From NCBI RefSeq assembly GCF_045037415.1, contig NZ_CP173438.1: a stretch of 64,000 nucleotides of DNA; one strand, written 5' to 3'. Every line of letters begins with the position of its first letter. The stretch's first letter is position 1. The notes below the pieces were generated by a model that worked only from the letters and a program-made list of their open reading frames with translations, made no database searches and was not told where the DNA came from. The DNA is from Escherichia coli. Lineage in GTDB: Bacteria > Pseudomonadota > Gammaproteobacteria > Enterobacterales > Enterobacteriaceae. Shown in pieces: positions 11,161 through 12,234 of the stretch. The position numbers and the translations under genes are program-made.

Positions 11161-12234
11161 ATGGCAGAGAAAAAAAGAACCCGCTGGCAACGGCGGCCAG
11201 GCACGACGGGCGGCAAATTACCGTGGAATGACTGGCGCAATGCCACGACCTGGCGTAAAGCGACGCAATTATTACTGTTGGCAATTAATATTTATATTGC
11301 CATCACGTTCTGGTATTGGGTGCGCTATTACGAAACGGCAGGTAGTACGACATTTGTCACCAGACCGGGTGGTATCGAAGGCTGGCTACCGATTGCCGGT
11401 CTGATGAATCTGAAATATAGCCTTGCAACAGGTCAGTTACCGTCCGTCCACGCCGCCGCGATGCTGTTATTGGTCGCTTTTATCGTCATCAGTCTATTAC
11501 TCAAAAAGGCCTTTTGTTCATGGTTATGCCCGGTTGGTACGCTTTCGGAATTAATCGGCGATCTCGGTAACAAACTGTTTGGTCGGCAATTTGTCCTTCC
11601 CCGCTGGCTGGATATTCCTCTGCGCGGCGTGAAGTATTTGCTGTTGAGTTTTTTTCTCTATATCGCGTTATTGATGCCCGCTCAGGCGATTCACTATTTT
11701 ATGTTGTCGCCCTACAGCGTGGTGATGGACGTTAAAATGCTCGATTTCTTTCGTCATATGGGGACCGCGACATTAATCAGCATGATCGTTTTGCTGATTG
11801 CCAGCCTGTTTATTCGCCATGCCTGGTGTCGTTATCTTTGCCCATATGGCGCGCTGATGGGCGTGGTTTCGCTATTATCGCCGTTTAAGATTCGTCGCAA
11901 TGCCGAAAGTTGTATCGATTGTGGCAAATGCGCAAAAAGTTGCCCATCACGGATCCCGGTCGATAAATTAATTCAGGTACGAACAGTGGAATGTACCGGC
12001 TGTATGACTTGCGTAGAGTCATGTCCGGTAGCCTCAACATTGGCCTTTTCACTGCAAAAACCTGCGGCAAATAAAAAAGCCTTTGCGTTGTCTGGCTGGT
12101 TAATGACGCTACTGGTTATGGGGATTATGTTTGCGGCGATTGGTTACGCAATGTATGCGGGAGTATGGCAAAGCCCGGTGCCGGAGGAATTGTACCAACG
12201 CTTAATTCCGCAATCGCCAATGATTGGTCACTAA
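11161..12234 (+). CDS. yccM: Putative polyferredoxin membrane protein YccM (NapH/MauN-like, 2x[4Fe-4S])
   Basis: 357-aa ORF; CPxG motifs (CPVGTLSE, CPYGALMG) and two CxxCxxCxxxCP ferredoxin motifs; hydrophobic segments. Confidence 0.9.
   Translation: MAEKKRTRWQRRPGTTGGKLPWNDWRNATTWRKATQLLLLAINIYIAITFWYWVRYYETAGSTTFVTRPGGIEGWLPIAGLMNLKYSLATGQLPSVHAAAMLLLVAFIVISLLLKKAFCSWLCPVGTLSELIGDLGNKLFGRQFVLPRWLDIPLRGVKYLLLSFFLYIALLMPAQAIHYFMLSPYSVVMDVKMLDFFRHMGTATLISMIVLLIASLFIRHAWCRYLCPYGALMGVVSLLSPFKIRRNAESCIDCGKCAKSCPSRIPVDKLIQVRTVECTGCMTCVESCPVASTLAFSLQKPAANKKAFALSGWLMTLLVMGIMFAAIGYAMYAGVWQSPVPEELYQRLIPQSPMIGH

What the first reader, a model, noticed from the sequence alone, without database searches (positions are those of the whole stretch)
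11161..12234. YccM, an uncharacterised NapH/MauN-like polyferredoxin, lies immediately downstream of torS
YccM has multiple transmembrane segments, two CPxG motifs and two CxxCxxCxxxCP [4Fe-4S] motifs, which is the architecture of NapH/MauN/RdxA-type membrane redox proteins. Its function is unknown. It follows torS after only 82 bp with no obvious terminator between them, so it may be co-transcribed with torS and might serve a redox or sensing role connected to TMAO respiration.
Basis: inference. Interest (0 to 1): 0.25.

Follow-up and report, generated by a model that had tools for sequence, protein, structure and literature searches.

The report
YccM: NO-regulon polyferredoxin, not Tor-linked
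The gene is the known E. coli membrane iron-sulfur protein YccM. It sits next to the TMAO sensor gene torS only in Escherichia, and its own conserved binding site for the nitric-oxide sensor NsrR, together with its relatives' gene neighbours, points to nitric-oxide stress rather than TMAO respiration.

Summary
Window 11161-12234 (+) encodes YccM (357 aa, 96% identical to K-12 b0992). It has five predicted TM helices, two CX3CPxG motifs and two CxxCxxCxxxCP motifs, and it starts 82 bp after torS with no terminator in between.

The TMAO interpretation is not supported:
- torS is adjacent to yccM in only 4 of 80 species-level loci, all Escherichia.
- One Escherichia species kept yccM and its upstream region after losing torS.
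- Citrobacter has both genes, unlinked.
- There is no TorR box near yccM.

The gap instead holds the best NsrR-operator match in the whole 64 kb window (11121-11143), abutting a conserved -10-like TAGAAT. This is the site already published as bound by NsrR in vivo in K-12 and CFT073. Comparable sites precede 39 of 48 Enterobacterales orthologues, whatever gene lies upstream.

About half of the Acidobacteria homologues (~50% identical) lie in clusters with hcp, qNOR norB, RIC/ytfE, hemerythrin and Crp/Fnr genes. One more distant relative heads a yccM-nrfH-nrfA operon, and another follows an Rrf2 regulator gene.

YccM falls below every curated NapH, NosR and CcoG cut-off, and its membrane fold has no solved relative. 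My best reading is a stand-alone quinone-linked polyferredoxin of the nitrosative-stress response. The gene and its NsrR binding are already known; its biochemical role is not.

The parts
11161..12234 (+). yccM coding sequence (357 aa plus stop)
   Evidence: ORF list; 96% identical to K-12 b0992; RefSeq annotation yccM.
11079..11160 (+). torS-yccM intergenic gap, 82 bp here and 71 bp in other Escherichia
   Evidence: No terminator-like site on the + strand; no unusual RNA fold (z = 0.14).
11121..11143 (.). NsrR operator-like 11-1-11 inverted repeat, TAGTGGCATTTGGTATGCAACTT
   Evidence: A PWM built from 16 other published NsrR sites scores it 17.4 bits, the best in the whole window (next best 12.85). 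The identical sequence is listed as an in vivo NsrR ChIP-seq site with its summit 36 bp upstream of the yccM start (PMC5320621). It is conserved upstream of orthologues.
11116..11121 (+). -10-like hexamer TAGAAT abutting the NsrR site (candidate yccM promoter)
   Evidence: A TAnnAT hexamer is conserved at this position in Escherichia, Citrobacter, Enterobacillus, Intestinirhabdus and Providencia. Its promoter function is inferred, and no transcription start site has been mapped. The consensus scan did not call a full promoter here.
8346..11078 (+). torS, with a 1-bp deletion near 11059/11060 that replaces the last 8 codons by 4
   Evidence: Alignment with five Escherichia loci; annotated 'frameshifted' in strain SK1144, which is identical over window 10500-13700.
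11515..11538 (+). First CX3CPxG motif (aa 119-126), directly after TM2 on the cytoplasmic side
   Evidence: C119, C123 and G126 are invariant in a 63-sequence alignment reaching down to 28% identity.
11827..11850 (+). Second CX3CPxG motif (aa 223-230), after TM4 on the cytoplasmic side
   Evidence: C223, R224, C227, P228 and G230 are invariant.
11911..12027 (+). Two CxxCxxCxxxCP [4Fe-4S] motifs (aa 251-262 and 278-289) forming a dicluster ferredoxin domain
11266..12141 (+). Span holding the five TM helices: aa 36-54, 96-114, 159-177, 200-218, 309-327 (nt 11266-11322, 11446-11502, 11635-11691, 11758-11814, 12085-12141)
   Evidence: Hydropathy and the positive-inside rule; helices in the AlphaFold model. 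The predicted topology is N-terminus in, all 12 Cys on the cytoplasmic side, C-terminus out.
11362..11409 (+). Conserved predicted-periplasmic loop RPGGIEGWLPIAGLMN (aa 68-83)
   Evidence: Invariant among 15 orthologues. R68, P69, L76 and P77 are at least 90% conserved across the wider subfamily.
12142..12231 (+). Predicted-periplasmic C-terminal tail (aa 328-357) with conserved W336, P341, I349, P350 and H357; absent from the NapH profile
   Evidence: The NapH profile alignment ends at aa 298.
12249..12276 (.). Strong hairpin 15 nt after the yccM stop codon, shared with the convergent gene gnsA
   Evidence: RNA fold -26.4 kcal/mol, z = -6.9, 0 of 200 shuffles as stable. gnsA annotation.

Best explanation
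yccM is an independent gene, not a functional part of the Tor system. It encodes a stand-alone member of the NapH/NosR/CcoG superfamily of membrane polyferredoxins.

Architecture. Four TM helices carry two cytoplasm-facing CX3CP cysteine pairs. A cytoplasmic 2x[4Fe-4S] ferredoxin domain follows, and then a fifth TM helix and a short conserved periplasmic tail, which are subfamily-specific.

Shown here:
- The architecture and predicted topology.
- The Escherichia-only adjacency to torS.
- An NsrR-type operator that overlaps a conserved -10-like element immediately upstream of yccM and is conserved across Enterobacterales regardless of the upstream gene.
- The recurrent placement of homologues beside NO-handling genes.

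Shown by others: NsrR binds this region in vivo in K-12 and CFT073.

Inferred:
- yccM is transcribed from its own promoter, which holo-NsrR represses and NO de-represses.
- The protein moves electrons between the quinone pool (through the TM/CX3CP module, as proposed for NapH) and its cytoplasmic Fe-S clusters.
- It thereby feeds or drains NO-stress enzymes or repair reactions, for example Hcp-, RIC/YtfE- or Nrf-type partners. This would be a role comparable to Hcr or FrdX.

The actual redox partner and the direction of electron flow are unknown.
For: Independence from tor:
- tor genes lie within 10 kb of yccM in only 4 of 80 species-level loci, all Escherichia.
- yccM and its upstream region are retained after torS loss in L004.
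- yccM follows cbpA-cbpM directly in nine loci.
- The Citrobacter braakii tor locus lacks yccM.
- There is no TorR box near yccM.
- No neighbouring gene family is conserved across genera.

NsrR control:
- The site at 11121-11143 is the top PWM hit in 64 kb.
- It is the published ChIP-seq site (CFT073) and ChIP-chip site (K-12) (PMC5320621).
- 39 of 48 Enterobacterales orthologues have a site of at least 12 bits within 250 bp upstream, against 17 of 459 control upstream regions in the same loci (Mann-Whitney p = 8e-26). In most of these loci it is the top hit of the whole ~21 kb locus.
- A conserved TAnnAT hexamer abuts the site.

Association with NO genes:
- 12 Acidobacteria loci place the homologue within 7.4 kb of Crp/Fnr regulator, hemerythrin, RIC/YtfE (TIGR03652, 239 bits against a cut-off of 204.7), Hcp (Prismane) or qNOR NorB genes.
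- A Providencia MAG has ytfE 173 bp downstream.
- A 45%-identical homologue heads a yccM-nrfH-nrfA operon.
- A 40%-identical homologue directly follows an Rrf2 regulator gene.

Expression and phenotypes:
- yccM is about 2.9-fold higher anaerobically, similar to hcp and hcr (PMC3688515 Table S12).
- The knockout shows stress phenotypes: heat, with plasmid complementation (PMC5828445), and blue light and other stressors (PMC11673782).

Family mechanism: PMC5928378 and PMC8238504.
Against: - NsrR ChIP enrichment at yccM is low (2.24-fold). yccM was not among the 19 NsrR targets that changed more than 1.5-fold under nitrate-derived NO in CFT073.
- No transcription start site for yccM has been mapped, the -35 region is weak, and the consensus scan called no promoter in the gap.
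- Read-through from torS is not excluded: there is no terminator, and the anaerobic induction is similar.
- The reported knockout phenotypes concern heat, light and oxidants, not NO.
- Only 13 of 80 fetched loci show NO-gene neighbours. Those homologues are only about 50% identical, so their function may differ.
- E. coli already has Hcr for Hcp and NrfBCD for NrfA, so no orphan acceptor is evident.
Confidence: 0.5

Rival explanations
1. First reader's idea. yccM is co-transcribed with torS as a two-gene operon, and its product serves a redox or sensing function in TMAO respiration, for example by reporting redox state to TorS/TorT or supporting TorCAD.
For: - The gap is only 82 bp (71 bp ancestrally) on the same strand, with no terminator-like structure.
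- torS, torT and yccM are all 2.3-2.9-fold higher anaerobically in published arrays.
- The adjacency is kept in 4 of 5 Escherichia species and in about 5400 E. coli genomes.
Against: - There is no synteny outside Escherichia.
- yccM is kept after torS deletion in L004.
- Citrobacter has both genes, unlinked.
- There are no TorR boxes near yccM.
- The gap has its own conserved operator and -10-like element.
- Homologues occur in Acidobacteria and Burkholderiales loci with no tor genes nearby.
- In this very strain torS is frameshifted at its end, while yccM is intact.
Confidence: 0.07
2. YccM is a CcoG-type cupric reductase. It reduces Cu(II) to Cu(I) through its two [4Fe-4S] clusters and CX3CP sites, and serves copper homeostasis in a bacterium that lacks cbb3 oxidase.
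For: - A copper-homeostasis review names YccM as a smaller CcoG homologue lacking the Ig-like domain (PMC7558416).
- The two proteins share the TM plus CX3CP plus dicluster architecture.
- The predicted-periplasmic loops and tail of YccM carry conserved Met and His residues.
Against: - The CcoG equivalog model scores 34.7 bits against a cut-off of 316.7 and aligns only aa 98-233.
- There is no FixG_C/Ig-like domain.
- No ccoHIS or copper genes appear among the neighbour families in 80 loci.
- The regulatory signal found is NsrR, not a copper regulator.
- NapH and NosR models score higher than CcoG.
Confidence: 0.15
3. YccM is a general quinone-linked redox maintenance protein for oxidative, heat or envelope stress, with no specific link to NO. 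On this view the NsrR site is a weak, physiologically minor input.
For: - The Keio yccM mutant is sensitive to critical high temperature, with complementation, and to blue light and several single stressors.
- NsrR enrichment is low and no NO response was seen in CFT073.
- A 46%-identical homologue sits among nitroreductase, rubrerythrin-like, thioredoxin and SUF genes, and another sits near rubredoxin.
Against: - The strong conservation of the NsrR operator across Enterobacterales argues for selection on that input.
- The clustering with hcp, norB, ric and nrfHA is specific to nitrogen oxides.
Confidence: 0.2
4. [quoted passage not shown]
For: PMC5828445 lists yccM under 'sulfur relay system, tRNA modification', and its mutant shares the heat-sensitive phenotype of the tus mutants.
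Against: - No Tus-like or sulfurtransferase domain is present; the protein is a membrane polyferredoxin.
- No tus, mnmA or iscS genes appear among the neighbours.
- From my own knowledge, the ycc-series gene in the Tus relay is yccK (tusE), so this classification probably stems from a database pathway assignment.
Confidence: 0.03

Closest known systems
[quoted passage not shown]
   Same: The best-scoring curated models are NapH models. The alignment covers YccM aa 30-298 against NapH profile positions 26-278 of 286. Both have four TM helices, two CX3CP motifs and two C-terminal [4Fe-4S] motifs on the cytoplasmic side.
   Different: The scores are far below the cut-offs (96 against 234, and 93.5 against 213). 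YccM has an extra basic N-terminus, a fifth TM helix and a conserved periplasmic tail. It has no napG-like partner and no nap operon, and stands alone. E. coli has a separate napH gene (one search lists b2204).
CcoG/RdxA/FixG cupric reductase
   Same: Both are five-TM polyferredoxins with two CX3CP motifs and two [4Fe-4S] clusters. YccM has been called a CcoG homologue in the literature.
   Different: YccM scores 34.7 bits against a cut-off of 316.7, over the membrane core only. It lacks the C-terminal Ig-like periplasmic domain and is not in a ccoGHIS context.
NosR/NirI and RdhC/PceC (flavinylated NapH-like proteins)
   Same: They share the four-TM plus two-CX3CP membrane module, and NosR also shares the two Fe-S motifs.
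   Different: YccM has no periplasmic FMN-binding domain. The NosR model scores 77.5 bits against a cut-off of 1000. It is not encoded next to nosZ or a reductive dehalogenase.
Core NsrR regulon of E. coli (hmp, ytfE, hcp-hcr, nrfA and others)
   Same: An 11-1-11 inverted-repeat operator close to the start codon and overlapping the likely promoter; in vivo NsrR binding; modest anaerobic induction like hcp-hcr.
   Different: ChIP enrichment is much weaker than at ytfE, hcp or grxD, and no NO-dependent expression change has been reported for yccM.
FrdX, the ferredoxin-like partner gene of hcp in the HcpR regulons of Desulfovibrio and Clostridioides
   Same: An Fe-S protein encoded with hcp, induced by NO and needed for NO tolerance. 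In Granulicella the YccM homologue lies about 1 kb from an hcp gene that has no hcr gene called beside it.
   Different: I could not obtain an FrdX sequence, so homology or shared architecture with YccM is untested. This is an analogy of context only.

Membership tests
PF12801 (Fer4_5) 'NapH-like' membrane polyferredoxin superfamily | Two TM-linked CX3CP modules (Fer4_5) scoring above the Pfam gathering threshold | tested here: met
   83.7 bits against a cut-off of 22, with two stretches. The motifs are at aa 119-126 and 223-230.
PF12801 (Fer4_5) 'NapH-like' membrane polyferredoxin superfamily | C-terminal 2x[4Fe-4S] ferredoxin domain on the cytoplasmic side | tested here: met
NapH (NF007013) and NapH/MauN subfamily (TIGR02163) | Score at or above the curated cut-off of the family model | tested here: not met
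   96.4 against 234, and 93.5 against 213.
NapH (NF007013) and NapH/MauN subfamily (TIGR02163) | Encoded in a nap (or mau) operon with a NapG/MauM-type periplasmic ferredoxin partner | tested here: not met
   The neighbours are torS and gnsA. No conserved neighbour exists in 80 loci.
CcoG/RdxA/FixG (TIGR02745) | Score at or above the curated cut-off | tested here: not met
   34.7 against 316.7; only aa 98-233 align.
CcoG/RdxA/FixG (TIGR02745) | C-terminal periplasmic Ig-like domain, and a ccoGHIS context | tested here: not met
   No such Pfam domain is found, and the protein ends 30 aa after TM5. No cco genes lie nearby.
CcoG/RdxA/FixG (TIGR02745) | Cu(II)-specific reductase activity | not testable with these tools
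   This needs biochemistry. CcoG activity is described in PMC7558416.
NosR/NirI | N-terminal periplasmic FMN-binding domain, and a score above the model cut-off | tested here: not met
   There is no FMN-binding domain hit. NF046105 scores 77.5 against 1000.
NsrR regulon | NsrR-type 11-1-11 inverted-repeat operator in the promoter region | tested here: met
   The site at 11121-11143 scores 17.4 bits, within the range of the 16 training sites (16.3-31.7) and the best in 64 kb.
NsrR regulon | Operator conserved upstream of orthologues | tested here: met
   39 of 48 Enterobacterales loci score at least 12 bits, against 17 of 459 controls.
NsrR regulon | NsrR occupancy in vivo | not testable with these tools
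   Published: a ChIP-seq peak in CFT073 (2.24-fold, summit at -36) and ChIP-chip in K-12 (PMC5320621).
NsrR regulon | Expression changes with NO or in an nsrR mutant | tested here: inconclusive
   yccM is not among the 19 NsrR targets that changed more than 1.5-fold in CFT073. The K-12 nsrR transcriptome papers could not be retrieved.
Tor (TMAO) system / torS operon | Conserved gene linkage with torS, torT and torR across species | tested here: not met
   Only 4 of 80 loci, all Escherichia. The Citrobacter braakii tor locus has no yccM.
Tor (TMAO) system / torS operon | TorR boxes (CTGTTCATAT) upstream | tested here: not met
   Three perfect boxes lie at 6489-6551 and one isolated match lies at 57508. 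None, even allowing one mismatch, lies between 6552 and 14871.
Tor (TMAO) system / torS operon | A transcript spanning the torS-yccM junction | not testable with these tools
   There is no terminator in the gap. Transcript mapping is needed.

The most novel reading that the evidence does not exclude
YccM-type stand-alone polyferredoxins are the membrane, quinone-linked electron entry point of the bacterial nitric-oxide stress response. On this reading they deliver quinol-derived electrons through the CX3CP module and two [4Fe-4S] clusters to cytoplasmic NO-handling or repair proteins (Hcp, RIC/YtfE, hemerythrins), or to Nrf-type reductases. That would make them a membrane counterpart of Hcr or FrdX, conserved from Enterobacterales (under NsrR) to Acidobacteria (under Crp/Fnr-type regulators).
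Probability: 0.3. Interest if true: 0.55.

Novelty: already known. Interest (0 to 1): 0.3.

Why it matters
YccM is a core E. coli gene: 5402 of 5426 complete genomes carry at least 80% of the 3.2-kb stretch around it. It still has no assigned function. It belongs to a very large superfamily (8242 cluster representatives at E <= 1e-3) whose membrane module has no solved structure.

Showing that its position beside torS is a lineage-specific accident removes a tempting but wrong lead. The conserved NsrR operator, and the hcp, norB, ric and nrfHA neighbourhoods of homologues, replace that lead with a concrete and cheaply testable one: YccM links the quinone pool to NO detoxification or Fe-S repair. 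If confirmed, this would fill a gap in how NO-stress enzymes are supplied with electrons, and it would give a tractable E. coli model for the NapH/NosR/CcoG module.

Tried and rejected
- FNR-activated promoter. I noticed GCGATttgaATCAA at 11081-11094, centred about 41 bp upstream of the inferred start, and a conserved AAATCAAT block in other genera. However, two-mismatch FNR matches are barely enriched in the window (49 found against 32 expected). yccM is also absent from the FNR ChIP peaks, the predicted FNR sites and the FNR-dependent operon tables of PMC3688515. I do not claim this.
- The sigma-70 ChIP peak 'within torS' (PMC3688515 Table S2). After coordinate conversion it lies about 1 kb upstream of the yccM start, so it is not the yccM promoter.
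- Primary NsrR papers. Partridge 2009 and Filenko 2007 are not held. The CFT073 supplement held as text has no yccM entry.
- Weak 'TorS' hits in Providencia loci (28-29% identity, 8-9 kb away). I read these as unrelated hybrid histidine kinases, because true TorS orthologues in Citrobacter are 74% identical.
- The sulfur-relay classification. I rejected it on domain content.
- Contexts of four distant homologues were uninformative or on contigs too short to judge.
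Full report
**What is there.** The window is E. coli chromosome. Window 10500-13700, the stretch I compared, is 100% identical to several complete genomes. The ORF at 11161-12234 (+) encodes a 357-aa protein that is 96% identical to K-12 YccM, b0992, 'putative electron transport protein'.
- CSWLCPVG at aa 119-126 and CRYLCPYG at aa 223-230.
- CIDCGKCAKSCP at aa 251-262 and CTGCMTCVESCP at aa 278-289.
- Five hydrophobic segments.

By the positive-inside rule the basic N-terminus (10 Lys/Arg in 33 residues), both CX3CP motifs and the ferredoxin domain face the cytoplasm. The 55-95 loop, the 183-195 loop and the last 30 residues face the periplasm. An AlphaFold model built on a 63-sequence alignment is very confident (pLDDT 93.9, pTM 0.90) and shows the same helices.

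**The gap after torS.** torS ends at 11078 and yccM starts at 11161, so the gap is 82 bp. It contains no terminator-like hairpin on the + strand and folds no better than shuffled sequence (z = 0.14). The 82 bp is a lineage-specific value. This torS has a 1-bp deletion near 11059/11060 that changes ...[11 protein letters not shown] to ...AWLIRKT*. In other Escherichia the stop corresponds to 11087-11089 and the gap is 71 bp. RefSeq marks torS as 'frameshifted' in a strain identical over the stretch compared.

**Family placement.** Pfam finds two Fer4_5 (PF12801) modules, 83.7 bits against a cut-off of 22, and a dicluster ferredoxin domain. The NCBIfam results are all far below the curated cut-offs:

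| Model | Score (bits) | Cut-off (bits) | Region of YccM aligned |
|---|---|---|---|
| NapH | 96.4 | 234 | aa 30-298 (nearly the whole NapH profile) |
| NapH/MauN subfamily | 93.5 | 213 | aa 88-291 |
| NosR | 77.5 | 1000 | aa 101-284 |
| CcoG | 34.7 | 316.7 | aa 98-233 |

**Is yccM tied to torS?** I fetched 80 loci, with up to 10 kb of flank on each side, from different species that encode YccM homologues, and searched them with the window's TorS, TorT, TorR and TorC.
- tor genes flank yccM only in four Escherichia loci.
- The fifth Escherichia locus (sp. E1V33, L004) keeps only about the last 70 bp of torS, followed by an intact intergenic region and yccM.
- In nine loci yccM directly follows cbpA-cbpM (DnaJ-like and MerR_2 proteins). 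These include L004, several Citrobacter and Intestinirhabdus. In K-12 cbpA-cbpM lies on the far side of the tor locus, so the whole tor locus behaves as an insertion or deletion.
- Citrobacter has true TorS orthologues at 74% identity. In C. braakii the torDAC-torR-torT-torS locus is followed by unrelated genes, while its yccM is elsewhere (L010).
- No neighbouring gene family is conserved across genera.
- The TorR-box decamer CTGTTCATAT occurs three times perfectly at 6489-6551, where it is expected, and once in isolation at 57508. It does not occur near yccM even with one mismatch allowed.

The adjacency is therefore an Escherichia-specific accident of gene order.

**What the gap contains instead.** The literature search showed that the torS-yccM intergenic region is a published NsrR target. 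In CFT073 a ChIP-seq peak has its summit 36 bp upstream of yccM and the 11-1-11 site TAGTGGCATTTGGTATGCAACTT. The same promoter was found by ChIP-chip in K-12 (PMC5320621). That exact sequence is window 11121-11143.

I tested it independently. A weight matrix built from the 16 other published 23-bp sites scores it 17.4 bits, within the range of the training sites (16.3-31.7). It is the best hit on either strand in all 64 kb; the next best scores 12.85.

Upstream of the orthologues, 39 of 48 Enterobacterales loci have a site of at least 12 bits within 250 bp. This compares with 17 of 459 upstream regions of neighbouring genes in the same loci (p = 8e-26). In most of these loci the site is the top hit of the whole ~21 kb locus, whether the upstream gene is torS, cbpM, a DosC-like diguanylate cyclase or something else. 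In Escherichia, Citrobacter, Enterobacillus, Intestinirhabdus and Providencia a TAnnAT hexamer (TAGAAT at 11116-11121) abuts the site. This is the geometry expected for a repressor that occludes the -10 element and the transcription start.

This is strong comparative evidence for an independent, NsrR-controlled yccM promoter. There are caveats. No start site has been mapped, the -35 region is weak, the consensus scan called no promoter in the gap, the ChIP enrichment is only 2.24-fold, and yccM was not among the NsrR targets that responded more than 1.5-fold to nitrate-derived NO in CFT073.

**Independent support from distant homologues.**
- In 12 Acidobacteria loci, about half of those fetched, the ~50%-identical homologue lies within 7.4 kb of NO-handling genes, and mostly within 3 kb. 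These are Crp/Fnr-family regulators, hemerythrin-domain proteins, RIC/YtfE (ScdA_N plus hemerythrin; TIGR03652, 239 bits against a cut-off of 204.7), Hcp (Prismane, 529 bits) and quinol-type NorB.
- In Granulicella L078 the order is yccM-like, crp/fnr, hcp, ric, and no hcr gene was called beside hcp.
- A Providencia MAG has ytfE 173 bp downstream of yccM, on the opposite strand.
- Among the more distant relatives whose contexts I looked up (eight in all), a 45%-identical protein heads a yccM-nrfH-nrfA operon.
- A 40%-identical one directly follows an Rrf2-family regulator gene.
- Others sit near nitroreductases, a rubrerythrin-like gene, thioredoxin and SUF genes, or near rubredoxin. Four contexts were uninformative.

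hcp, ytfE, nrfA and hmp are the classic NsrR targets in E. coli. The regulatory evidence in Enterobacterales and the gene-neighbourhood evidence in other phyla therefore point the same way.

**Mechanism proposed.**
- Shown: the architecture, the predicted topology, the operator, the lack of Tor linkage, and the NO-gene associations.
- Inferred: NO inactivates NsrR and de-represses yccM. YccM then uses its TM/CX3CP module to exchange electrons with the quinone pool, as proposed for NapH, and passes them through two cytoplasmic [4Fe-4S] clusters to or from NO-stress enzymes or repair reactions. This is analogous to the way Hcr or FrdX serve Hcp.

The partner and the direction of electron flow are unknown. 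The conserved periplasmic loop and tail leave room for a periplasmic partner, as the nrfHA operon suggests. The published knockout phenotypes fit a stress-protection role but are not specific to NO: heat sensitivity with plasmid complementation, and sensitivity to blue light and several oxidants.

**Rivals.**
- The CcoG-like cupric-reductase idea has been stated in the literature and cannot be excluded. It is weakened by the very low CcoG model score, the missing Ig-like domain and the absence of any copper-related context.
- A general redox-maintenance role with only a minor NsrR input fits the weak ChIP signal and the knockout phenotypes.
- The sulfur-relay label has no support in the domain content.
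- An FNR-dependent promoter, which I considered because of a TTGAT-like element at about -41, is not supported by published FNR ChIP or expression data.

**Verdict.** The architecture call is right. The TMAO link is not supported. The gene, its family resemblance and its NsrR binding are already in the literature, so the finding itself is not new. What this analysis adds is threefold: the torS adjacency is confined to Escherichia, the NsrR operator is conserved across Enterobacterales independently of context, and homologues in other phyla sit in NO-detoxification clusters. Together these give a specific, testable function for a long-standing y-gene.

Noticed in passing
window 11059-11089 (3' end of torS): torS has a 1-bp deletion relative to five other Escherichia loci. 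It replaces the last 8 codons (NKKDLNAI) with 4 (IRKT) and moves the stop codon from 11087-11089 to 11076-11078. RefSeq calls torS a frameshifted pseudogene in a strain identical over window 10500-13700. Whether TorS still works is unknown.
   Followed up: partly
window 13348-14888 (cspH / appA): cspH (13348-13560, +) and appA (13548-14858, -) converge and overlap by 13 bp. K-12 has IS1D next to cspH and, from my own knowledge, the etk-etp-gfc cluster between appA and cspH. This strain appears to lack that block.
   Followed up: no
window 12249-12276: A perfect GC-rich hairpin lies 15 nt after the yccM stop codon, between the convergent genes yccM and gnsA (fold -26.4 kcal/mol, z = -6.9). It is followed by a second, U-rich hairpin. 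It is probably a shared, bidirectional 3'-end structure.
   Followed up: partly
window 11181-11200, minus strand: Two terminator-like hairpins with T-runs lie on the strand opposite the first codons of yccM. An antisense RNA, 'yccM-as', with an A-to-I editing site is mentioned in PMC13170351. Read-through from the convergent cspG-ymcF-ymcE-gnsA genes could be its source.
   Followed up: no
within torS, about 1 kb upstream of the yccM start (K-12 U00096.2 coordinate ~1,053,670): PMC3688515 Table S2 lists a sigma-70 ChIP-seq peak inside torS with higher anaerobic occupancy (214 against 370). This suggests an internal promoter of unknown direction and purpose.
   Followed up: partly
window 11081-11099 and the equivalent position in L006, L007, L017, L024, L029, L030, L036, L037: A conserved AAATCAAT block lies about 20 nt upstream of the -10-like hexamer in many genera. 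In Providencia it reads cTGATgcaaATCAA, which resembles an FNR/CRP-family site. No published FNR binding at yccM was found, so the factor that binds it, if any, is unknown.
   Followed up: partly
L083 6001-9195, L084 3037-6231: A 45%-identical YccM homologue overlaps the start of nrfH and is followed by nrfA, forming an apparent yccM-nrfH-nrfA operon. Neighbouring genes carrying Por_Secre_tail and CHU_C domains suggest the contig is from Bacteroidota.
   Followed up: partly
L067, L069, L072, L073, L076 (for example L069 5032-6369): A ~445-aa multi-pass membrane protein with no Pfam or NCBIfam hit recurs next to ric and norB in the Acidobacteria NO clusters. It may be NnrS-like, but that is unverified.
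   Followed up: partly
L008-L020, L055 (Citrobacter freundii group), immediately upstream of yccM: A DosC-like globin-coupled diguanylate cyclase (Protoglobin, DosC_2nd and GGDEF domains) lies directly upstream of yccM on the same strand. The NsrR-like site sits between the two genes, 75-79 bp before the yccM start.
   Followed up: no
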